Positions 5,391 through 61,344 of a DNA stretch of 64,000 nucleotides are shown in pieces. Source of the DNA: Paraspadella gotoi (Eukaryota; Animalia; Chaetognatha); assembly GCA_051294375.1 (NCBI GenBank), contig CM119267.1, positions 7,544,683 to 7,608,682 of the forward strand, read 5' to 3'. How positions within the stretch are numbered: the stretch's first letter is position 1; every line of letters begins with the position of its first letter. The notes beneath the pieces are model-generated. The model did no database searches. It saw nothing but the letters and a program-made list of their open reading frames with translations, and was not told where the DNA came from. The position numbers and the translations under genes were made by a program.

Positions 5391-8300
5391 CTAAGTTGTT
5401 CTTTGAGCTTCTCTCTGACCGGCGCACATTTCTTCGAAAAAACGAGAGACAGCCGAGGCGCTGTCGACGCAACCGTCAAAATTCGAGGTCGAGACAAAAG
5501 CGTCTCCGGCTAGAATCAAGGGCGGCGTCCTGCAGACCACCAAACAGCCGGGCACGCCTTCGTACGGGCGATGGACCTGAAAGCGACATTTGAGTATATG
5601 TTAGTTAGATTAAACTAGGTACATTTTCCCCATTCTTTCTTCTTGAAATCCCATTTTTTTCAAATTTGGTTTCTCTTCTTACTTGGGAGCATCTCCACCG
5701 CAAGCACTTCACAAAAAGGGGATCAGCGGATTTTAAAAAGGGTACTCTTTCTGACAAACGATCCATGACGATCTTTTTGATCTAAATGAAGTCGAAAGAA
5801 AGAGTGAAAATTTTTTTATCAGCGATGTAAATAATTATAGATTCACCAAATCACCTCGTCCATATCCTTTTCAATATTTTCTAGGCCAAATGGAACGGTA
5901 GTGTGAACGACGATTGAAGTTCCATCTTTGCTCTGACGAAAAAAAAAATAGACGGGTCAGTGTCCTGGACCTTAAAGAAAGTACGACACGTCTTGATGCA
6001 TTGAAGTGTAGTGGATGAATTTGTGAATTATTTAAAATGAGATTGAGTTCATAAATTTCATTTGCATATTGTCGTGTTCTGATTAAGTTTTGATCAATTT
6101 TCATTCTATTGCCATGAAGGTTTATAATTGATATTTTCCAATGGCAAATGATTATGTTTGTTTGTGATTCAATTAATAGCTAAATAATTAATGATTTTAT
6201 TATCATATTTACTTAATTATACTTTTATGACTTTTCTATATTTAGTAAGAAAGAATTATCCTTTAGTCTAGGATTACAAGGGTGTCGGATTGAACCACTA
6301 TATTTCAACACAAGCAATTGCTATTCTTTCACAGGTTTATACTTAAAATACATTGCAACACATAGGAGTAGTAGCCAATAGATTAATAACATGCAATTTA
6401 TGGTTCCAAATGGAACCGGGATTCTTCATGGTTCTTCCCCACCAACAAAGTGAGCATCTGCTCTGCAAACGCGACATCTCCCGAGAGAAAAACGAAGAGG
6501 AAACCTCTTCCCCGCCTTCTCTTCCCCCTCCCGTACGCTACCTCAGTACGCCGACACGAGACAGAATCACTCGTAACCAAGCAAACCAAGAGGGGGGAAT
6601 CCCGCGAAGACTTCCGGTGAAGTGCCACGCCCACTTGACCGGACGTCGTAGAAGGGGGGGATGAGAAACCGCAAAAAACCAGTCCATGGACGAAAACCAG
6701 GTCTGGAGAAACTGACGGCCGGACGAAGCAACGGCCGAAAGAGCTGTCGGGCGATCAGTCGGCGTCCTTGACGTCGCTGGAGCCCCGCCCCTACGCTTGG
6801 GAGGCGGCGAAGGCTTGCGAGGCCAGTAAGGACGGCGAGCGGGACTACGCGGACTGCCACGCCCACGCTTGCGGCTAACAGAACAGGCGCAATAGTGTGG
6901 CGCCCCGGAGCGGAGAAGCGAAGAATGGAACGCTTGAGTGACGTCTGTGGAGCGGTCTCCGAAAAAGAACGACGTGGAGGGCGGAGAACTGGACAGAACT
7001 GTCTTGAAATCCGAAGAGGCAGCGTCGACAACAAAGGCCGAGACTCGGAGAGGGCCCGAGCGAAGGGCCTCAACCATGAGGCGGAGAGCGTCAGCACAGA
7101 AAGGACAGCATGAGCGGACGCTCCGGCATCTCTCATGATGCGCTCAAAAGCCTTGAAAGCGCGCGTCGTCTTGGAGTCCTTCCGAACGGCGTCGAACTGA
7201 GCGGCAAGGCAACTCTCGAGCAGGAGGACGAAAATCCGCCGGCGAAGAGACATCCGACCAGCGCCGGAAACGCGTCTTGGCGGAAAGCACGTCCCACGAC
7301 GGAAAAGAACGTCGTCCTGGCCAACTCTGCGCAAGAACCTCAAATGCTGAAGGACCCACTCCGAAGGCTGTACAGAAGCACGACGAGACAAGAAGTTGTC
7401 AAACCCCTCAGCAGACTCTTCAGAGGAGGAACCCTCCTCTGATCCGGAAACGGAGGCGTCGTCGTCGACTCGCGCAGATGGGGCTCGACGAGGAAGGCGT
7501 GACAGTGTCACCCTCTCGGAGCGTGAAGGCCGATCCGCCGCCGAAGAGGCCACCAAAGAACGCGAAGACTCCAAGTCGCTGGCGTACAACGAAGACCGAC
7601 AAAGAACGGCGAAATGGCGAACAGAGGCGTCCAAGAACCATGAAGAAAACGTACATGGAAAAAAGAGAAATCATTGAAAAATGACAGTCTCAAAAAAAAA
7701 ACCCCAAAAAAACACCCCACCAAACAAGACAAGCGAGCCTGAGCCGCCCTCCACCACCGTGGTGCCAGGGGTGGACGGTGGGTGGTTGTTGGTGGGGAAG
7801 AACCATGAAGAATCCCGGTTCCATTTGGAACCATAAATTCTATCATGTTGTTCTTCCCACCAACAAAGTGAGCCTGTAACAAGACCAGGTGAAGGCCCGA
7901 CAAAAAACAAACAAAGTCGAGTGAGGTGGGGCACAGGAGGAAAACCCCTCTGTACGCCGAATGTACGCCAAAAAAAGGCGAAAAAAAAAAAAAAAAAAAC
8001 GAAAAGAGAAGAACTCACTGCCGAAGACTCTCCAACTCGGAATGAGACGAGCGGCGAAACTCCTAAAATTCGCGACGAACGCTAGAGAGAGCGTTGCTAA
8101 TTTGGAGAAGAACTGCCTCCATCTGAGAGGGCATGACTTTGACCCGATCAGAACAGCCCGGAATGGCTGGCGGTGGAGGCGGCGGCGAAAGCGGCGGCGG
8201 AAGAGACATGAGGGTAGTCGAGTTGAAGAACACGCGCCTCAGTCCAAAAAACGGAGAGTACTGGACAAACAAGGGGGCCGAAAACATAGTTCTTCCCCCC

Positions 8301-10220
8301 TGCAGCCGTACTGTGCGCACTGGGCAAACGAGAGGGCCGAGTCACAGCTCTTCCCTCCGCAGCCGCGCAGGGTGCGTCGAGGGCAAGCGAAAGGGCCGAG
8401 TCAAGGCTCTTCCCTCCGAAGTCACGCACAACGAAGACGAAAAAGATGGCGGTCGCGAAGAGAAAACTTCAAACCGCCACGTGTTGAAGAATATCTGTAT
8501 TCTGAACTCCAAAAAAAGAGAAACGAAAAAATATGCAGAATTATTCAACAAAAATAATCAAAAATATTTTCGAAAAAAACCGGGAGACTGAGCGCAAAAG
8601 CGCGAACAGAAGAAGTGATTCTGTCTCGTGTCGGCGTACTGAGGTAGCGTACGGGAGGGGGAAGAGAAGGCGGGGAAGAGGAGGTTTCCTCTTCGTTTTT
8701 CTCTCGGGAGATGTCGCGTTTGCAGAGCAGATGCTCACTTTGTTGGTGGGGAAGAACAACATGATAGAATTTCTATCCTTTCATAGGTCTATACTTGAAA
8801 TACATTGCAAGCCTAATTATCTCGCTCATTCCTCTTACCAAGAGGTCTGCCAAGTAGCCTTCAAACCAGTTTATGCTATTCATTCTCTACTGAACTTATA
8901 TAAACCGATGTTATAAATTATTAGGATTTATTATTTATTATTTCTTAAACGAAATATAGAGGTAAGGATGATGTTATACATCGGCACACAACCGAAATCC
9001 CCTTTCGCTCTAATTTTCTCCAGCTGTAATACCTGAACGCCGCGCTTTTTGGGATCGACCGCGACATATCTAATGACGGGGTCGTCGTCGATGTACCTCG
9101 CGACCCAGTCCTCAGCATCGACATCCACTTCGGGTCCGAACCAAGCGGCGACGGCGTAGCGGGAAGAGTAGACGACGCGGCGAAGTTTGTGGCCGACGTC
9201 GTCCACGGAGGAATCGAGGATTTCGGGAAGGTCGCCCCCGATCTCGAGAAGATTGCGAATTGGCGTCGTGAGCACCAAGGAGGAAAAAGAGTCGGATTCT
9301 CCGTCTTCGCTCTTTACGCTCCAACTAGGGAATTGACCATTTGTCAAAAAGTTTTAATAGGAAGAAATTCAATGACCAAGTGTCAATTTTTAGAATAAAT
9401 ATATGAGAAAGATACATACACATAGTTAATGTTTACATGGGATCTAGCGGATAAAGCTCAACAACAAAATTGTGTTACCACGAGGTTTTTACCGACCTTT
9501 GACCGTCAGCACTCAAGGAGACGTCGACTATTTTCTTGTTAAAGCCAAGTTGGACGTTGGTTGCGGAGCCGAGGAAATGCTTAACAATAGAGGAGGATCC
9601 GTTGACGGCGACAAAATGGCCAGAGTCATCTGAGTTGATTGATGGCAACGTCATTAGTCAATAGGCGAAACGGACCAAATCAAGTTATTCACAAATTTAA
9701 ACTTCACAAAAGTATTTGAAACTACTAAATTTTTGAGCTGGGAACTACTGTAAAACGGCTTGTCACCTTTTTCACCGGCGAATTTGTCTCCTTTGATGAC
9801 GCCCCTCAGCGGCATCAACACGCCTAAAAACGTCAACGAAAACGTGAGTGAATAGAGTCCGAAAAAATTCGCAAGCTCACTTACATCATCGCACCAGCGC
9901 CTTGAAGCTCTCGGTAAATCTTTCTGTGAAGCTCGATCCCGCGGGGCTCCCACTGCTTCTCAACAGGCGTGAAGTACTGCGCGCCGAGATCTGCGGTGAC
10001 AAAACTTTCCGCAGCGCGCGCCGTGCTCATCCGTCCGCCGGCGCCACGCGCTTTGTCCCAAATCGAGATAGACCTTTGGGCTCCGCTAATAAAAGGGATG
10101 AAAGAAAAGTTATGTTATATTTATCCAAGAAAAGAAAAATTACCTATTTTCAACGCGGGACAAAAAGTTTGCGCACAGAGCGCCGGTGATCCCTGCCCCA
10201 CCGATCAATATTCGATCCAT
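5391..10220 (-). CDS. RNLS: renalase-like FAD-dependent oxidase; its large intron (5933-9030) contains a DIRS element
   Basis: MDRILIGGAGITG Rossmann motif; YSSRYAV, YIDDDPVIRYVAVD; 3' exons SIVVHTTVPFG, KCLRWRCSQ, LILAGDAF..SNFDGCVDSA; TAG at 5393-5391. Confidence 0.9.
6395..8772 (-). mobile_element. non-autonomous DIRS-1-type (tyrosine-recombinase class) retrotransposon
   Basis: Inverted terminal repeats 6395-6571 / 8614-8772 with non-identical outer ends, both bounded by AATTT. Segment 7786-7873 is the exact complement of the right end joined to the left end across AATTT, i.e. an internal complementary region (ICR). Frameshifted gag-like minus-strand ORFs at 6538-7634. No RT or recombinase seen. 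Confidence 0.85.
8263..8418. repeat. three imperfect ~59-bp tandem units inside the DIRS element
   Basis: GG(A/G)CAA.C.A..GGGCCGA...CTCTTCCC.CCGCAGCCG-like units start at about 8263, 8322 and 8381. Confidence 0.7.
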
Positions 10221-19435: not shown

Positions 19436-19493
19436 TAATAGAAATAAGTTTGAGTTTATTTGCAACAACGATTTTATTAGTACATAAGGACGT
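19436..19493 (-). repeat. isolated fragment of the Penelope pseudo-LTR
   Basis: Near-identical to the reverse complement of 28066-28124 and to 26488-26541. Confidence 0.85.
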
Positions 19494-25726: not shown

Positions 25727-28700
25727 CTATAAGACACATTCACCCAAGTCATCTTCGTAAATTTCACGATCTCCGTCTTCCTCTGCCCCTTCTTCCTTTT
25801 CATCAACTTCTTCTTCGTCCTCTTCACCCTCTTCTTCCAAGACGAGGACTTCATCGTTACCGTCATCCTTGGCGCACTTTCCGTCATGGTGGTCGGCACG
25901 ATTGCCATCCCCGTCGTTATCGTCATTCTCATTAAAGATCTTCTCGCTCTTTTTCTCTAATTTATTTTCACCATCCTCTTCTTCCTCCAAGTCGATTTCC
26001 ATGATCCGAGGCGGGACTTCTCGCTCGCGATGTTCCGCGCTCTCGACGTGGGGAGGGATATCGACGGCTGCGCCGATCTCCACTTGACAAAGGAAGCAAT
26101 AGAAGCTGTTCTCGCTAGCGTCTAGACGCCCGATCTGCGCGGAGCCGAGTCCATAGGCCGGGCCGAGGTTCGGATCCACGGGTATTAGTTTGCAGGCGTC
26201 GTCACCGAGCTCTGAGACGCCTCGGCGGTGATCGAAAGACTCCGCGTGATTCGCCAACAGCCCCGCGTCTGTCAATATTTAACAACATAATTCAATTGCA
26301 AGTAAAAATCCCGCTCTTTGCCGTAACCTATTTTACATTATAACGAATTTCACAAAGCGATCTGATGGAGACGGAATCGTGAAGAGGAATTTCCAAAGAC
26401 TCTGAACTTTCCGACATGTGATATTCATATTTAAACAATATTAGGCATAGCGAATTTCTTTCATTTTGTATGTGGTTTGGATTAGTAAGAAATAAGTTTG
26501 AGTTTATTTGCAACAACGATTTTATTAGTACATAAGGACGTACATGTTTCGGCTTTAGTTACAAGGGTTCTTGCTGCTGAAGAGCCTACCGCGCCACCAC
26601 AGCGCAACTGGAAGATAAGCAGAAGCGCCCTAAGAACGTGGGTCACTTGTCCCTCCCCTACACCAGGGATCACTGAGTCATTGGTGCGGGTGCTGGCAAA
26701 GCAGGGGATCTCCACCTCAGTGACGACCGCGGTTCTCTACGAGAGCAATTGGTGAAACCGAAAGATAAAATCCCCAGACCGAAAACATCAGGAGCCGTCT
26801 ATTGGGCGGCCTGTGCAGGGGCGGGCAACCAAGCCTGTGCAGCAGCATACGTGGCGAGACAGGCAAGTCTCTAACAGACCGCTTTCAGCAGCACACAAAA
26901 ACCTTATCGCGATGCGAGAGGACATTACCTATCTGCGGTAGCTGAACATACAGTAAATACTGGCCATCTATTTAGAGAGTCAGACTGTCTCGTGCTGTCC
27001 CATGACCCAAACTGGTTCTCAAGAGGTATTAGAGAGGCGATCTATATCAAAGCCCTCGAGCCCTCTTTGAATCGTGATGGAGGACGATTCGATCTCCCTC
27101 CAAGCTATGATACGCTTATCAAAAGCGTGGTGGAGGCCCCGCCACCACCACGTCCGCACAATGACTCCCCCGTTTCTACTCAACGAAAACAAGGGGAGAC
27201 CTTTGCGCAGGCAATGGGCAAACGATGCCTCTCCTTCAACTGCAGCAACTCACTCCCTCTCTCTGTGGAGTAAGCGCCACCAAAAAGGCGGCTGCTGGAG
27301 GAAGGAGAGGAGTCCACCACTCATGTCGCAAAAGCGGCAAGAACGGACAACCACCCATCTCGCCAGCAGACGAGAAGAGGGCAGTCGACAGGCGTACCAG
27401 GCCAGAGAGACATCAGGGTAGCCTTTGGACTCTTCCCGCAAGGAAGCCTACCCAGTCCATCACATACAGGCTCAATCGATATGACCTCTCAGCCACTGAC
27501 GCGCCAATGACTCGACCACATCGTCACTACCTCTCATTTGCTTCAACCAAAGGGGGCCAGCTCATTTTGAGCTCTTTCTTAATTCTTAAAATTTCACTTT
27601 CCACATTAATAACTTCTAAACTTAATTCTCTCTTTCCTTTCACATTTCAATTTCACTGTTTTATACTCAATTATTTATTAAGTAGTTTAATGTTAAAAAT
27701 ATTTATTTCACTGTTAGTTTAAATCATTTATCTTTGTTGTACATTGCACAATGTATTGTTACTAATGTTCCTTTTCTCTCTCTCTCTTCTCTCTCTCTCT
27801 CTGTCTCTCTCCTCTCTCTCAAAATTTTTCACCAATTTAATTTCTTTTCACAGTAAACTCAATCTGTCTTCACCTTGACCTGTCCTCACATCTGACCACT
27901 ATTCTTTTCTCAACTCTGTGTTGAAAACTTTGCCCTGTCTCTGTCTCTCTCTCTCTCTCTCTCCTCTCTCTCTTACTTTTCCTTTGCACAAATAATTTGT
28001 AAAAGTTCACAAAACAATTTTTTCTATGACGCTGAAGAAGGCTTGTAACTAAAGCCGAAACATGTACGTCCTTATGTACTAATTAAAATCGTTGTTGCAA
28101 ATAAACTCAAACTTATTTCTATTAAACAATATTTAAACAATCCGACTCACCTCGAAAATGTCGGTCGCAACCATTGCACCAATAAGCGGGGCGGATTTCA
28201 TACATTGCAACTTCGTAGTCCAAGTACCTTCGCCTTTTGGTCGAAAACTCTCTCGAAGTCATTTCTTTATTGACAGCCGACTCGGATTTTGTCTCTTTGT
28301 CCGATTTATTATCCTCGGTTTTGTCCTTTGTCCCTTTCCACGCTTTCAATGCTTCCAAATGTTTTGCCCCTACGACAGACAAAAAATACGTTTCTGAAAG
28401 AATCAAAACAGACAGACACAAAAAAACCTACCTTCTCCGTGAGCCACCAGCTGTTTCGCAGTGCAAAAAGAAACCTGACACAGACTGCAATTGAATTCCC
28501 CTTCCGAATTTCGCACCGCCGCTAAATGTTTCTTGCCTATGATAAAAAAAAATTAATAAAAAGTTCATTGTTCAAAGCAAAATGATAGTTAATAAATATT
28601 ACCAGAAAGATGCGCGTCCAGGTGATCTTGGGAAGTCATGGAAACATTACATATGGAACAACAGAACAATGCCCCTTTGGTGCCTGAAAAATAGTGAAAT

Positions 28701-30647: not shown

Positions 30648-33282
30648 TCAATGTAGCAAATCCTCGTAAAAGACGTCCGTCGGCGGCGTTTGTGTCGCCT
30701 CTTTTTCGTCATTTTTCTTCATTCGTTTCCAGGGTTGTTCAGGTTTTTCCTCCTCGACTTCTTCCATGATCACCTGAGAAAAAAATTATAGAATCTAAAT
30801 CCATAGTTATTTACTATTTATTTATTTATTTATTCCGTTTAAAATGTAACGCAAAAATACAACTTCAATTCAGTTTATCAAGTAAATCAAATATCTACAT
30901 ACCCTTGGGGTAAGCATGGTGACTGGTTGATTCTTCTGATACACTTGTGTGTATCGGGGATTCTTTTCGGCATCCTCGGCGTGTCGGAGCATCGCCTCTC
31001 GAGGATTCTCATCCTTGTTGAACCGATTAGTTCGTTCAGCGTAAAGTTTAGAGACGTAAGATGCCAGAGTGGAACCGGAAACGTTGAGACGTCCGCCCTG
31101 ACCACCCTTTCCTTCCAGAGGCGGTTCTGGTTTCTGTTAGTTGAAAAAAAAAAAATAAAAATAAAAGGGACGAGGCGACTTGGGTAGCGAAAGTTTTCTT
31201 TCGATTCCATAAAAGTTGCCATTTAAATCGCATAAAATCTAGCAAAAGCACAGACAGCTCGAGAACCAAAGTCATCTAACGACGAACAAACCTGCATCTT
31301 ATTAGGATCGTATCGATTTCTCCGCATGACGTGGCTCAGCTTAAACTTGCCGCTCATCCTTCCATCCTCCCGGTACATGGGCAGTGAGTAGGGCGTATAG
31401 ACTGCTTGCTCGGCAAACACTTCCATCTTAAAGGTCTTCTTTTTGACCTTCTCCGCACAAAGGAGGATACCCCGGTGGCTAAGTTCTCGGTCAAAGTAAA
31501 AGCGAACGTCGCCGCTGCTGAGACCCACGGCGATCTGGTTGAGTTTGGGATGCCAAGCGCAACGGATGACGCTCGTCGATGGATAAGAGACTTCGGTGAG
31601 AAGTTCCATCGATCCGCTGTCGAAGAACTTTAGTTTTCCGTCGCCGTCCTTCTTAATGTGGGTGCCCGTTACGACAAGACGGTTGTCGGGGCTGAAGACG
31701 CAGTCGGTCCCGTAGTAGCGGTTGTACAAATCACCGGCCTGGGCTACCGGAGATTTGAAGTTTCTTCGCGAAACCAAAATAGAAAAAAAAAATAAAATAA
31801 ACTATTATACTGTGGCGGTATATTCACACCGCCTCACGTCCACCATCCGTCAGCCAAATCCATTGGCTCAGAGGGGGAACACACCATCCCAGGCGTAGTG
31901 TTCCATCCACAGTCCTAACGACTTCCCTCTGCGTTGGCAAAGCGAGACCGTCCTAGGGTAACCGCGCCAGTGACTGGAGACGTCACTGAGGGTCGGAAGC
32001 CCCCAAAGCCAACAGTGAGATGCCCCATCCCAATGGGCATCACAGGCAACCCGGCTGTTGCCATAATACTACCTCGAGGCATTAATGTCAACTTACCTCA
32101 AATCCCACACTTTCAACGTGTCATCAAAGGCGCGTGAAGCGAGGAGTTTGTAGTCGTAAGAAAAGGCGAGTGAGGTGATCTCGGACCCGCTCTGATGGGC
32201 GGTCCGATTTTGCAGTGCCACGTTGACAAAGATCTTTTTAGTTCCGTCCCAGATTTGGATGGAACCGTCCTCGCACCCAGCGGCAATCCACTGCCCGTCG
32301 CCCGAATAAGTAAGGGCGGTGGGATTCACTTGCTGGGCGCGATGACCCTTTAAAGAGCGAGGCTTGATGATGTGACGGAACTTCTTCCCTTCGTCCTCCA
32401 AATGCCAAATCCTAAGACAACAGAGGAAATAAATAATAAATAAATAAGTGGTGGTAAAACAACAAAAATCGTCTCAGTAGGGCGAATCACAGTTTGTAAC
32501 AAAATTCAAACTCGCCTTATGGAACCGTCAATGGAACTCGTAAGAAACTGGCCCTTGCTCTTAGGGTTCCAGCAGCCGTCGTTCAGCATCCCCACGTGCC
32601 CTTTGGTCCGCGCCATGTCGACGATGTACTGGTCGCCCTTAATACACTCAAGAACGGTGCGTCCGTCGCGGTCGACCACTTTGGCCTGCGCGTTGCCAGC
32701 CACGACGAGAATGTTTTCCCCGGTGGGCGAGTATACGAGCTGTTTGATAGGATGCGCTTCGCAAGGGGTGATATCGCGAAAGGGCTTAAAGTCTGAGTCC
32801 ATGGCGTTAAAGTCGTAAAATTTGACTTGGTAATCATGACTGCCGGTTACGAAACGGGCTCCTGCGGGATCGATTCCCAGCGCGGATAGGGGCTTCGTGC
32901 CGTGAGTGAGCGTGGCCGACTCTTTTGCCGGAATACGTTCGTAACGGTTAAAGGCTTCGTCGCCCTCTTCGTCGTCGTCGTCGTCATCACTGTCTTTCGC
33001 AGGATCCTTGTCATCGTCGTCTTCGGAGTCATCGTCCCATTTACTTCGGGGTTTTATAATTTTTTCTTTCTCCGTTTCTTTCTGTTTAGACCCTGAAGCG
33101 ACCGCGGAATCGGGTCCGGATTTTCGCTTTTCTTTAGCTTCTTCCTCCAATCTCTTTCTTTCCTCCTCGTCGGCCTTTGCCTTGCACTCTTCCGATCGAC
33201 CTTTCGCCGTCAAAATCGTCTGCTTCAAAATTGAGTCCAAATCGAAAGTTCGAGCAGTTTTTCCCTTTTTCTCTTTATCCAT
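30648..33282 (-). CDS. WDR70: WD repeat protein 70
   Basis: ARTFDL, HGTKPLSALGIDPAGARFVTGSHDY, VVDRDG..ECIKGDQYIVDMARTKGHV, RCAWHPKLNQI, DPREAML. Confidence 0.95.
31811..32065 (+). mobile_element. 255-bp solo-LTR-like insertion in a WDR70 intron
   Basis: GC-rich block in an AT-rich intron; termini TGTGGC...GCCATA (TG..CA with one change); perfect 4-bp ATAC direct repeat at 31807-31810 and 32066-32069. Confidence 0.7.
31933..32013 (+). ncRNA. twister ribozyme, circularly permuted type P5
   Basis: GUUGGC(P5)-AAA-GCGA(P2')-GA-CCG(T1)-UCC ua GGG(P1)-U^AA-CCGC(P2)-GC(T2)-CAGUGAC/GUCACUG(P3)-A-GGG-UCGGAAGC-CCC(P4/L4)-CAAA-GCCAAC(P5'). Confidence 0.82.
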
Positions 33283-43784: not shown

Positions 43785-49841
<6,057 letters not shown>

Positions 49842-57200: not shown

Positions 57201-60200
57201 AAAGCGAGGTAGTCCTCTCCGCTGGGGCCGTCGTCGTCGACTCCGAAGGCGTCGTCGACGTCGTCGTTGTTGTTGTTGTTCCCATAGAAGCGCTCGTGGA
57301 GTTTGTCGTCGACGATCGTTTATGCGATTTTTCATTGTCGTCGTACCACACGTCGAGCAGTTTGTAAGCAGCGTTCTCGATCATTCGGCGGTTAAGGTCT
57401 TTGTTCATGACGGCCTTAAGATCGACGGCAAGCAGAGTCACCGCTTTGTCGATCGTCTTTTCCTGAGGATCGACGGAAGGCACTGACAGAGGTAGGCGCG
57501 GAAGGGTCGGCGGGGGCGGTTGCTGTGTGGGTGGAGGCCACATCGGAGGTTTAGGTGGAAAGTAACCGGGCTGATGGTGATGGTGCCCGGCGATGCGCGC
57601 CTCCATGTTTTGCGCCCATGTGGCGTGGTAAGACATGTAGTCTGTGGCCGAAGGGGGCGTCACGGTTGTTGAGGATATGTGAGGTACCGGAATAGGGGGA
57701 ACCGGGGGGAGGGGAGGGTGAGTGGGCATAGGCGGAGGTTGGGTGCCGGGAGGGACGATTGGGCTCGGATGGTGAGGTTGGGCGGGGGTAGATGAGTCAC
57801 AGGGCGTAGTAGTCACGTGGGGGGAGACGGAGGATGCTAACGAGTCTGCCTCGGCCATCGTTGCGCAGCCCTGTCGTTGTGGCGGCGTCATTGTCTTTTG
57901 CTGCGGTGTTAAACCGCCGCGAGGGGAGGAGGACGACGAAGACGCCAGCGCGACAATCGGAGGAACTGGTCCACGTCGTATCGCCGCGGGCGGTGGTGCC
58001 TCCCGCTTGTGCATTTCCGCATCACCGTCGGAACTCATTCTGTCTTCGACGTCCATGTCACTTCCCGACATTTCGCCATCCTCTCGCTCCGACGCCGACC
58101 GGAAACGATCGCCGTTGGGAGTGGAGACCCGCGTCGAAGTGTCTGCCGCGCGGCGCCTCACTTCCGATTTTGGCATTGGCTCCTCGTACCTCACAGAAGA
58201 TGATACCTCAGCCGAAGCGACAACAATACCTTCGGACGCTCTCGTTTCCGACGGGGTTCGCCCAGATGTATCGTCCCTATGTCGAAAATCGCGGTGGAGT
58301 ACCGACTCCGGCGTCGTCGTCGTCGGTGAAAACGCGGTCGTTGCCGAGTTGTTGCTCAACTTGGGCCGCATCTCGCATTTCCCAGGCGGGGACGAGAAAT
58401 CGTCCAATGTTGTATCGGCGACGTCGCCCCCGCCCTTGACTCCCGCCCCATCGCTGTCGCTCCGATTCAAAAGACTTGCGATCCTGGAGGATGAAAAATC
58501 AATTTTGTACAAAAACAAATTTTCTAAGAAAACACGTATTTTTTTATATACCATCATTTCACGCGCAAAAACTCGGAGTGTAAAGTTTTGATTGAAAAAA
58601 AAAAAGTGTCAATTTAATTAATCCTAATTCCAAGACTCCCAAGAGACACCGACCTCGATTCGAGGCTCTCATGCCTTTCGTCCTTTTCCTCTTCGCTGCT
58701 GACGCTGGGGTGGGAGTCACGGGTGGGACGTCGTCCATCCCACGAATCTTTAGGGGCGAAGCCAAGTCTGTAAGAGGGGGTGAATTAATTACTACTATTC
58801 TAATTATTTCTTCATAGATTTAAAAAAAAAAGTCGGGAATGTTTACCTATCTTCGGGACTTTTGCCCCTCGCGTATTCTTCGTCTCGAGTGATGAGATCT
58901 CGATCACGCTTCTTACGGTACTCCATCTCTTGTTGAATCATTCGTTGCCGATTCTCTTTATGATTGGAAGAATAAACGTCGTTTCTGGTGAGGGAAAGAG
59001 GGGGGAGGGAGAACTTTAATGGGAAATTCTTTCAGAAAAATTTATAGAATAACAATAAGAAATTAAAGCATTGTACAGTGTAAAAAGCATAATATCGAAC
59101 CTGTCGGACTCCGGTCTCCGATCCGATCTTTCAACGTCTCTTCGATGATGATAACGATCCCTGTCTCTTCTTCTCCGCTCCGAATCGTAATCTCTGTCTC
59201 TCTCCCTCTCCCGCTCTCTTTCCCTGTCTCTGTCTCTCTCCCTCTCCGCGTCCCGATAGCCCCTGCGATGATAGTAGTCGTCTCGATCGACCGGGTACGA
59301 CTCTTCGTGGTGATTGTAACGCGAAGAATGGTAGGCCGGGGGTTCAGACGGCGGAGGGCGGTAGGGCTGAGCCATCGGGGGCGGGCCGGGCGGCGCACTG
59401 GATGGCGGTGGGAACGAGTTTGGAGGAGGGGGAAGTGGATAAGCGTGGGAAGGGGGTGGCAGGTGCGTGGGAGGTAAGGGATAGCCGGGTGGTGGGATGG
59501 CAGGGTGAGGTATGGGCCCAGAGGCAGGGGGCGGAGGATGAGAAGGAGGATGGGGAGGCGGTGGGTGTGGCTGAGAAGCGGGATAGACGGGAGGATAGGG
59601 AGAGTATTCGCCACCGTAAGGCGGAGGTGGAGCCGCCGTAAACGGAGATGGCATCGGTTGAGGAGGAGGAGCTGGGGGCGTGGCGACCGTATTCGCAGGA
59701 TAGGCGGACGCGGTGGAATATCCAGAATCTGTAAAAAAATACAAACAAGAATGAAAACACTGTGTATTATGTAAGTAAAAAAGTGGGGACAACATTCGAA
59801 ATTGAACGTAGTATCTAAGAAAAGAATAAAGTTTGAAATCGTAAACGGACAAAATATCACAAACCCGAAATCTGAGACTGAGGAGTGATCTGAACAGAAG
59901 GGATCGGAGGCGATGGGGGACGAGCGGGCGGCGTCTTCTTCGACGTCGATGACGACGATTTGGACGCGAGCTTCCGAGGGCCGACGCCGCCTTCTCGCCA
60001 CATCGGAACCGGCTCGTACTTCTTTTCTTGACGCATCAGTTGATCGTAAAGCGTCTTTCGTTTGGCGCCTGTTGATATTACGAATAATTAATTATTAATA
60101 TTATGACAAAATTAATAACTTTCAAACAATTTGAAGTAGCGAAACTCGTGCGAATCACCGAGGATTTTCGCGGATCCACCAAAGACTCTTTTGAACTCAT

Positions 60201-60225
60201 ATCTATAAACGTTTCCGTTTTCAAT

Positions 60226-60292
<67 letters not shown>

Positions 60293-61344
60293 TGATTATT
60301 GATTGTTCATTTATTCGTTTCTATTTCAGGCCTTTTAGAGCACCGTTATTATTTGCCATTAAGCTGGTGTAAGAATGCGATGATCATTTGACCGGCCCTG
60401 CCGTCGCTTTGTGTGCCTCTCTCTCGTTACAGATCCACTCATTAAGGTTGCCTTCCGTGGTCGACCCGGCCGCTCGCACAGAACTCCTTTCGTGGCTGGC
60501 CCTGTGGGCAATCACCGATGCGCTGTCGCGCCGTGCAGCCTCACAAAAAAAAAAGACAAAAAAATCCTTACCCCCCGTGTCGATGTAGACACGCATAACG
60601 CTTCCCATCTTTTCCTGCTGGTCCAATTTTTCGGCACAATGACGGGCCGACCGTACGCTCGTAAAGATGGCCTGGCAAGCGAGAGAGAAAGTCTGGAGTA
60701 GACGACATCTTAAGTCCCTCTCTCGGTTCAAACGACGCAACCCAACTCACTTTCCCCAAACCGATGCTTTTCCCCGAGAGAGTGCTGTGGTAGATCTTGA
60801 CTTCGTCGAGGCTCCCGAATTTGGAGCACATCTTTCGCAGGAAAACGTCGTCGATGTTGTCGTTGAGATTGGAGAAAGTGAGCTCCCGCGGAGGAACGTG
60901 ACCGATGTAGTTGACATCAATCTACAAATAGGGCGAAAAAAGAAGTATTGGAGAAAAACTAATTCAATTTCAGAGTTTAATAATGAACCTTAAACTTTGG
61001 CAGCGGTAAATCCATAGACGACTTGTGCGCGAAATGCTTCTGAACACGAGACCGAGGGTCTCTCAGGACAGGGGGCGCCTCCATGGGGTCCGAAGGGAGA
61101 CCATCGTAGCGGTATATCTTAGAAAATCCTTTCCTAAATTTGGTTGAGACGTAAAATAAAGTTGAAAAAGTTTAACCCTAGACGAAAAAGGAAATAGTAG
61201 AACGTAGGATACGTCCTAGCGCTCTTACCCGCGCAATAGGGGATCCGTCATCAGTTTGTATGCCGCGAATTTTCTGGCGCGAGACAAATTTTGGCCGAGG
61301 GCGTGATGATCCGCCGTCAGTCCGTTGTGACCTTGATGCTCCAT
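54265..61344 (-). CDS. SETD1: histone H3K4 methyltransferase SETD1
   Basis: YKLMTDP, IYRYDG, DPR N-terminus; RRM ([11 protein letters not shown]); [16 protein letters not shown]; WIN motif GSARSEGY; SET ([25 protein letters not shown]); post-[16 protein letters not shown]. Confidence 0.96.
60132..60545. mobile_element. copy B (longest) of the intronic repeat family; TG..CA termini and an internal (AAT)n microsatellite
   Basis: Shares about 200 bp with 45979-46180; (AAT)n at about 60229-60291; a GC-rich right arm ends CCTCACA. No clear target-site duplication. Confidence 0.65.

What the first reader, a model, noticed from the sequence alone, without database searches (positions are those of the whole stretch)
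31807..32069. Twister ribozyme embedded in a solo-LTR-like element: a candidate twister-based LTR retrozyme
Seen: a 255-bp GC-rich insert with TGTGGC..GCCATA ends and an ATAC 4-bp target duplication lies antisense in a WDR70 intron. Positions 31933-32013 show every twister element in P5-permuted order: U^AA cleavage loop (predicted cut 31959/31960), P2, the GC pseudoknot, a 7-bp P3, A-GGG-UNNNAAGC-CCC, GA followed by CCG complementary to loop CGG, and a closing 6-bp P5. Defects are one C.A mismatch in P2 and a very short P1. Known: described LTR retrozymes (plants, fungi) carry hammerheads and produce circular RNAs, and animal twisters are mostly linked to non-LTR elements or tandem repeats. 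Inference: this may be an LTR family that uses twister cleavage in each LTR to release unit-length, possibly circular, RNA. I do not know of such a family, but could not search.
Basis: partly seen in the sequence, partly recalled or inferred. Interest (0 to 1): 0.9.

Follow-up and report, generated by a model that had tools for sequence, protein, structure and literature searches.

The report
Twister ribozyme in animal retrotransposon LTR
This 255-base insert is one copy of a very abundant repeat in an animal genome; it is likely the end-repeat (LTR) of a small non-coding retrotransposon, and it carries a twister-type RNA motif predicted to cut itself, which would let the element copy itself through an RNA circle as plant "retrozymes" do with a different ribozyme.

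Summary
Window 31811-32065 (255 bp, ATAC on both sides) lies in a WDR70 intron that is spliced out. It contains a P5-permuted twister motif: both pseudoknots and the catalytic bases are intact, and a looser descriptor hit only 2 times in 578 random windows. Rfam gives only a weak partial twister-P1 match.

New evidence supports an LTR. In one DNA run 13,138 contigs lay on the stretch, with ends piling at both termini and unrelated AT-rich flanks. One contig continues from the 3' end into antisense tRNA-Trp starting at its CCA (a primer-binding site). Several contigs share a purine-rich run before the 5' end. tRNA-like A and B promoter boxes lie upstream of the twister. Common variants within the twister break no pair.

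Against: no two-LTR contig, circle or cleavage was seen, and the monomer is predicted to prefer an inactive fold by 10 kcal/mol.

Best reading: solo LTR of a Gypsy-dependent, likely Pol III-driven mini-retrotransposon working like an LTR retrozyme, but with a twister. I found no such element in print. Two published wasp Helenus LTRs show the same layout with an unremarked hammerhead.

The parts
31807..31810 (.). left target-site duplication ATAC
   Evidence: sequence
31811..32065 (+). 255-bp element, likely solo LTR (TGTGG..CCATA termini)
   Evidence: loose ends of other copies pile at 31807/31811 and 32065-32068 with unrelated flanks
31811..31836 (+). 5' terminal hairpin, upstream of the inferred transcription start (U3-like, inferred)
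   Evidence: inverted repeat I4; fold
31864..31876 (+). Pol III A-box-like motif
   Evidence: matches TRGCY of Helenus box A
31896..31912 (+). tRNA T-arm-like hairpin holding a B-box-like motif (31900-31908)
   Evidence: 4 of 5 stem pairs; A+B pattern in 31 of 200,000 shuffles; only such site in the window; no Rfam tRNA hit
31933..32013 (+). P5-permuted twister motif: P5 31933-38/32008-13; P2 31942-45/31962-65; G-A 31946-47; T1 31948-50/31994-96; T2 31966-67/31999-32000; P3 31968-74/31982-88; P4 31989-92/32001-04
31951..31958 (+). P1 segment: 2-3 bp hairpin in a monomer; self-complementary octamer that could pair between two copies
31959..31960 (+). predicted self-cleavage site U^A
   Evidence: position by analogy to the twister consensus; untested
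32016..32062 (+). two hairpins between the ribozyme and the 3' end (32016-44, 32045-62)
32066..32069 (.). right target-site duplication ATAC
   Evidence: sequence
31764..32096 (-). host WDR70-like intron (333 bp; 74 bp without the insert and one TSD)
   Evidence: splice joint 31763-32097 in run X9; length

Best explanation
The insert is one copy of a very abundant 255-bp repeat that is likely the solo LTR of a small non-coding retrotransposon mobilised by a Gypsy-type partner, and its LTR holds a twister motif predicted to self-cleave, which would release a unit-length, probably circular RNA from two-LTR copies. Inferred cycle: Pol III starts just upstream of the A box in the 5' LTR, runs through the internal part into the 3' LTR; the twister cuts at the same site in both LTRs; a host ligase joins the 5'-OH and cyclic-phosphate ends; tRNA-Trp primes reverse transcription at the site just 3' of the LTR; going round the circle rebuilds both LTRs; the partner's integrase inserts the DNA with a 4-bp duplication at AT-rich sites; most surviving copies are solo LTRs. 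Shown: the motif, the fixed ends, the abundance, the TSD of this copy, one PBS-bearing contig. Inferred: Pol III use, cleavage, circles, partner, non-autonomy.
For: Twister parts all present, both pseudoknots perfect; P1, P2 and outer P4 imperfections are tolerated in natural twisters. 13,138 contigs of DNA run X2 laid, summed depth about 1.3-1.7 million inside against about 100 in the flanks, sharp at both ends, flanks heterogeneous (agreement 0.41-0.44). One X10 contig, 190 of 192 letters identical, continues 2 nt past the end into a stretch matching the printed antisense human tRNA-Trp at 24 of 29 letters with one 3-nt gap, beginning at the CCA complement. X9 contigs share a purine-rich run just before the 5' end (8 contigs, 5, the same run). 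A+B boxes in 31 of 200,000 shuffles. Shown variants at 2% or more: 16 of 96 positions upstream, 0 of 65 constrained twister positions (Fisher p 2e-4). Wasp Helenus-2_SyJa/SyUm LTRs have the same order with a hammerhead and a tRNA-Trp PBS (read by eye).
Against: No contig with two LTRs, no go-back joint, no gag-pol partner seen. The PBS rests on one contig of depth 6 from a run labelled as another organism; only 30 of its 84 loose letters were shown. The PPT-like consensus comes from 5-8 contigs of one run with agreement 0.57-0.65, little above random small groups (0.52-0.62). In DNA the flank consensus is random sequence. The nested native fold lies 10 kcal/mol above the minimum, with P2 and P4 pair probabilities 0.11 or less, whereas 4 of 4 Rfam-matched control twisters have gaps of 2-6 kcal/mol. 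Rfam score far below threshold. A-B spacing is short (36 nt start to start; about 45 in tRNA, recalled) and Rfam sees no tRNA. 18 variant rows were hidden. The 3' end is TA, not CA.
Confidence: 0.6

Rival explanations
1. It is a solo LTR of a Helenus-like TRIM or of an autonomous Gypsy element that replicates by the ordinary linear LTR route; the twister is inactive, or only trims RNA ends, and no circle forms.
For: All LTR evidence above fits. Inactive alternative fold predicted at 0.84-0.97 pair probability. No circle seen.
Against: Common variants avoid the twister stems and core while the upstream part varies freely. A cut at the same site in both LTRs would remove the terminal redundancy that linear strand transfer needs, the argument made for plant retrozymes.
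Confidence: 0.25
2. It is a non-LTR element: a tRNA-headed SINE or a twister-headed RTE or Penelope derivative.
For: A/B boxes; twisters are known at the 5' end of Perere-3 RTE elements.
Against: 53 bp lie upstream of the A box and 149 bp upstream of the cut, yet the 5' end is fixed and DNA depth shows no 5' truncation gradient; no A-rich or simple-repeat tail; TSD 4 bp; PBS after the 3' end.
Confidence: 0.05
3. It is a MITE of a Ginger2-type DNA transposon that happens to carry a captured twister.
For: Ginger2 has TGTNR termini, 4-bp TSDs and AT-rich targets, as here; most flanks are random.
Against: Ginger2 TIRs are 50-180 bp; here 5 of 6 terminal letters pair and no long terminal inverted repeat exists. 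DNA transposition gives no reason to keep ribozyme stems, and does not explain the PBS.
Confidence: 0.06
4. The twister resemblance is chance.
For: Rfam E 0.61 only; unfavourable predicted fold.
Against: 2 hits in 578 random windows for a looser descriptor; 0 of 56 pattern-matching loci pair this way; variants spare the pairs.
Confidence: 0.04

Closest known systems
Plant LTR retrozymes (Cervera, Urbina, de la Pena 2016, PMC4918200, passages; review PMC7761336, passages)
   Same: Ribozyme inside a ~300-bp LTR, 4-bp TSD, PBS and PPT of Gypsy type, many solo LTRs.
   Different: They carry type III hammerheads, use tRNA-Met and are primarily in plants; here an animal, a P5-permuted twister, tRNA-Trp, and A/B boxes. 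Circles are shown there, untested here.
Helenus / TRIMp3 (Kojima 2024, PMC10886601; main text parts 1-4 of 6, supplement parts 1, 9, 10 of 11)
   Same: tRNA-derived A/B boxes in the LTR, 4-bp TSD in animals, PBS to a tRNA 3' end including Trp, thousands of LTR copies, some LTRs ending in TA.
   Different: No ribozyme is described (the word occurs once, in the references); none of 14 'aagccc' hits in its sequence file reads as a twister by eye. Boxes here are more degenerate and closer together.
Helenus-2_SyJa and Helenus-2_SyUm of Synergus wasps (same supplement)
   Same: TGTGG start, A/B boxes, then a ribozyme-like motif, tRNA-Trp PBS, G-rich PPT.
   Different: The motif reads by eye as a complete type III hammerhead, not a twister; not computed here and not remarked by the author.
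Type-P5 twister ribozymes (review PMC5408937, passages; Rfam RF02684)
   Same: Strand break in P5, U^A site, G-A, T1, T2, P2, P3, P4.
   Different: No Rfam P5 hit; CGG/CCG pseudoknot; P1 a very short hairpin or self-complementary octamer; sits in a mobile element.
T-variant twisters of Perere-3 RTE elements (Liu 2021, PMC8501958, passages)
   Same: Twister in an animal retroelement.
   Different: There the element is non-LTR, begins at the cut site and the TSD forms P1; here the whole ribozyme is internal, 149 nt from a fixed 5' end.

Membership tests
Twister ribozyme class | U^AA cleavage strand and opposing G-A (general acid and base) | tested here: met
   31959-61 and 31946-47
Twister ribozyme class | Pseudoknots T1 (3 pairs plus A.A) and T2 (GC/GC) | tested here: met
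   CGG/CCG and GC/GC
Twister ribozyme class | Stems P1, P2, P4 can pair | tested here: inconclusive
   P2 3 of 4, P4 3 of 4, P1 2-3 bp; such flaws tolerated but an alternative fold is predicted
Twister ribozyme class | Self-cleavage | not testable with these tools
   needs a bench assay
Rfam Twister-P5 (RF02684) / twister-P1 (RF03160) | Gathering score | tested here: not met
   no P5 hit; P1 partial 15.7 bits against 67.2
LTR retrozyme (Cervera 2016) | Type III hammerhead in the LTR | tested here: not met
   no hammerhead core in the window; twister instead
LTR retrozyme (Cervera 2016) | 4-bp TSD | tested here: met
   one copy only
LTR retrozyme (Cervera 2016) | Two LTRs around a non-coding core with PBS and PPT | tested here: inconclusive
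   PBS in one contig, PPT-like run in 5-8 contigs, no two-LTR contig
LTR retrozyme (Cervera 2016) | Circular RNA between the two cut sites | not testable with these tools
   only assembled contigs were available
Helenus / TRIMp3 | tRNA-derived A and B boxes in the LTR (TRGCY, YGG, GGTTC) | tested here: inconclusive
   TRGCY met, RGG for YGG, 4 of 5 of GGTTC, T-arm present, p about 1.6e-4; no Rfam tRNA hit
Helenus / TRIMp3 | PBS complementary to a tRNA 3' end, 4-bp TSD (animals) | tested here: met
   tRNA-Trp, one contig; TSD
Helenus / TRIMp3 | Short non-coding two-LTR element | not testable with these tools
   no genome held; internal part at least about 84 nt if the X10 contig is genomic
Ginger2 MITE | 50-180 bp terminal inverted repeats | tested here: not met
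tRNA SINE / twister-headed RTE | 5' end at the promoter head or cut site; A-rich or repeat tail | tested here: not met

The most novel reading that the evidence does not exclude
The first LTR retrozyme built on a twister, in an animal, driven by an internal Pol III promoter; together with the hammerhead-bearing wasp Helenus LTRs it defines an unrecognised class of animal Pol III LTR retrozymes in which the ribozyme is an exchangeable module. The self-complementary P1 octamer and the inactive monomer fold may make cleavage depend on two LTR copies in one transcript, so that the many solo LTRs stay silent.
Probability: 0.5. Interest if true: 0.83.

Novelty: new variant of a known kind. Interest (0 to 1): 0.72.

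Why it matters
LTR retrozymes are described as hammerhead elements found primarily in plants, and eukaryotic twisters have a shown role only in non-LTR elements in the papers I read. A twister in a very abundant animal LTR would show that the circle-based LTR life cycle does not depend on ribozyme class or kingdom, would give twisters a second biological job, and would supply many natural variants for testing how cleavage is controlled. It also points to a cheap screen: TRIM and Helenus libraries for hidden ribozymes, where two wasp families already seem to hold one.

Tried and rejected
No genome was held. Rfam at 3-kb scale found nothing relevant; no tRNA gene in the window. Exact-core pattern: 0 matches in viral and metagenome contigs. 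Relaxed pattern: 2, 34 and 20 loci in viral, metagenome and prokaryote collections; none pairs in this permutation and the 36 viral/metagenome loci have no BLAST similarity to the element; four of them, chosen because they looked like twisters, carry Rfam twisters and served as fold controls. No RNA holder is on record; X9 and X10 are only guessed to be RNA, so nothing is claimed about expression. Summed X9 depth is higher 3' of about 32000 than 5' of it, but contig depth cannot show RNA ends or levels, so it is not used. I laid 4 of 14 listed runs; no empty-site allele appeared among the joints shown (63 hidden). An alternative boundary (TG..CA ends with a 6-bp one-mismatch TSD) was rejected because loose ends begin at 32065, not 32063. 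A P1-swapped dimer closes only part of the energy gap (-55.8 against -63.2 kcal/mol, additive estimate), so it stays a hypothesis. A paper search for the 10-letter PBS start gave only unrelated listings. The host could not be named: best named WDR70 relatives are vertebrates and spiders at about 42-50% identity over most of the query, the three closest are unnamed. Earlier findings: nothing by sequence or place; word searches gave only non-LTR twister or hammerhead cases.

Full report
1. The observation. The insert runs from 31811 to 32065 (255 bp, 58% GC), starts TGTGGC, ends GCCATA and has ATAC on both sides; it has no second copy in the window. It lies antisense in a 333-bp intron of a WD40 gene whose named relatives are WDR70. 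A contig of run X9 joins 31763 to 32097, so the host splices the insert out. The host is an animal of a poorly sampled lineage: the three closest proteins are unnamed, and named ones are vertebrates and spiders at about 42-50% over most of the query.

2. The twister. Rfam gives only twister-P1 positions 11-56 at 15.7 bits, E 0.61, and no Twister-P5 hit, so it is not a member of either Rfam family by score. A loose descriptor hits the real window once, here, and 2 times in 578 random windows. Of 56 public loci with the same letter pattern, none has P2>=3 and T1=3 in this order. A high-throughput study of natural twisters (bioRxiv 2024.07.11.603121, passages and part 1 of section 31) found flaws in P1, P2 and most of P4 well tolerated and the pseudoknots sensitive; here the flaws are in the tolerated places.

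3. Evidence against easy cleavage. The pseudoknot-free native fold is -21.4 kcal/mol against a minimum of -31.6; P2 and P4 have pair probabilities of 0.11 or less, and an alternative hairpin that sequesters loop 4 has 0.84-0.97. Four Rfam-matched control twisters have gaps of 2.1-5.8 kcal/mol. Two mitigations are inferences: P2 forms with probability 0.8-0.96 in transcript prefixes before loop 4 appears, and the P1 octamer is self-complementary, so two copies could pair, though an additive estimate still leaves 7 kcal/mol.

4. The family. No genome was held, so I laid 4 of 14 listed runs. In DNA run X2, which may be the source sample, 13,138 contigs were laid; summed depth is about 1.3-1.7 million inside and about 100 in the flanks. 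This is not a copy number, but with the loose ends it means many hundreds to thousands of copies. The loose-end rows shown pile at 31807 (27) and 31811 (96), and at 32065-32068 (99, 81, 40, 57), with unrelated AT-rich flanks (agreement 0.41-0.44; 389 rows hidden). Both ends are fixed and depth shows no 5' truncation. Diverged copies occur in a biofilm metagenome (X11, 7 contigs). Among the 40 variant rows shown (18 hidden), positions varying at 2% or more in X2 are 16 of 96 upstream of the ribozyme and 5 within it: 31955, 31975, 31979, 31980 in loops and 32004 at the P4 mismatch, where the natural variant is a standard pair. None breaks a pair or touches a catalytic base (0 of 65 constrained positions, Fisher p 2e-4; I classed 32004 as unconstrained after seeing the data). 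X11 deletions at 31975 and 31980 also fall in the P3 loop. The C.A in P2 appears to be the family state.

5. LTR signatures. One contig of run X10 (labelled another organism, depth 6, 190 of 192 letters identical) continues 2 nt past the 3' end into a stretch that matches the antisense human tRNA-Trp printed in PMC5737633 and bioRxiv 400127 (one passage each) at 24 of 29 letters with one 3-nt gap, the last 12 exactly, starting at the complement of CCA (compared by eye). CCA is added after transcription in eukaryotes (established knowledge), so this reads as a primer-binding site, not a neighbouring tRNA gene. In X9, contigs ending at 31810 share a purine-rich run directly before the element (8 contigs at 80% likeness, 5 at 94%, median overhang 24 nt), as a polypurine tract would; this is suggestive only. 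No contig held two LTRs and no go-back joint was seen.

6. An A-box-like motif at 31864 and a B-box-like motif at 31900 inside a T-arm-like hairpin occur together in 31 of 200,000 shuffles (6 with the stem) and nowhere else in the window; the + strand has no T run longer than 2. The pattern was set after seeing the sequence, the spacing is short, and Rfam finds no tRNA. This matches Helenus TRIMs (PMC10886601), which in animals have 4-bp TSDs and Gypsy-type PBSs including tRNA-Trp. In that paper's sequence file two Synergus wasp LTRs show, by eye, A/B boxes followed by a complete type III hammerhead, with a tRNA-Trp PBS; the main text never mentions it.

7. Mechanism. An RNA started near the A box and cut at 31959/31960 lacks the first 149 nt of the element, yet copies keep a fixed 5' end. 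A single-unit retroposon cannot do that; a two-LTR element can, and if both LTRs are cut at the same site the RNA has no terminal redundancy, which plant retrozymes solve by circularising (PMC4918200, passages). I therefore commit to a Pol III-driven, tRNA-Trp-primed, Gypsy-dependent LTR retrozyme with a twister (0.6). My odds for the steps: twister fold real 0.95; LTR 0.88; active cleavage in the family 0.75; circle about 0.6 overall. Rivals: ordinary linear LTR element with an idle or trimming twister (0.25), Ginger2-type MITE (0.06; TIR test failed), non-LTR element (0.05), chance (0.04).

8. Comparison and novelty. It works like a plant LTR retrozyme but fails that family's hammerhead criterion, and it resembles Helenus but adds a ribozyme. 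It differs from Perere-3 twisters (PMC8501958, passages), which sit at the 5' end of a non-LTR element. A 2026 preprint still defines LTR retrozymes as type III hammerhead elements primarily of plants (10.64898/2026.07.22.740005, passages). Paper searches, with passages read in PMC7761336, PMC6765202, PMC11722881 and bioRxiv 2022.07.19.500677, showed no twister-bearing LTR element. Roth et al. 2014 and Repbase were not seen, bioRxiv supplements are closed, and I read 3 of 11 parts of the Helenus supplement plus motif searches, so an unremarked deposit may exist. Verdict: real feature, new variant of a known kind, interest 0.72.

Noticed in passing
PMC10886601 supplement DataS1, Helenus-2_SyJa-LTR and Helenus-2_SyUm-LTR: Both wasp LTRs hold what reads by eye as a complete type III hammerhead downstream of the A/B boxes, with a tRNA-Trp PBS; the paper does not mention it. 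They may be animal LTR retrozymes in their own right.
   Followed up: partly
run X10 contig, loose end behind window 32066: The match to tRNA-Trp runs at least 29 nt, past the usual 18-nt PBS (recalled), with a 3-nt gap near tRNA positions 58-63; it could be a genomic extended PBS or a primer-cDNA chimera.
   Followed up: partly
window 31951-31958: The P1 segment is a self-complementary octamer (predicted duplex -11 kcal/mol); earlier scan notes describe palindrome-armed P5 twisters in Naiad elements (unchecked).
   Followed up: partly
window 32065-32068: Many other copies also have A, AT or ATA right after the 3' end, which suggests a target preference like ATAN; counts may be capped.
   Followed up: no
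window 6316-8810: About 2.5 kb bounded by long inverted repeats (6431-6571 against 8614-8757) with internal partial copies at 7786-7873; low-complexity ORFs without Pfam hits. Possibly a rearranged or foldback element.
   Followed up: partly
window 19436-19493, 26488-26572, 28035-28124: Three copies of an AT-rich 55-90 bp repeat.
   Followed up: no
window 45975-46180, 47535-47568, 60129-60393: A ~210-bp dispersed repeat; the copy near 60200 holds an expanded (AAT)n tract.
   Followed up: no
window 49331-49689: Tandem array with a period of about 21/42 bp inside an ORF.
   Followed up: no
L005 323-400 and 1161-1228; L006 1518-1576 and 1948-1998: Metagenome contigs with two twister motifs each, about 430-840 bp apart, on the same strand.
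   Followed up: no
window, whole: Gene-dense animal sequence with short introns: Pfam hits for EXOSC1, Ofd1_CTDD, ferrochelatase, WD40, nibrin, Stealth CR1-4, RNase H2C, N-SET, ribosomal S13; no reverse transcriptase or integrase among the 29 of 96 ORFs scanned.
   Followed up: partly
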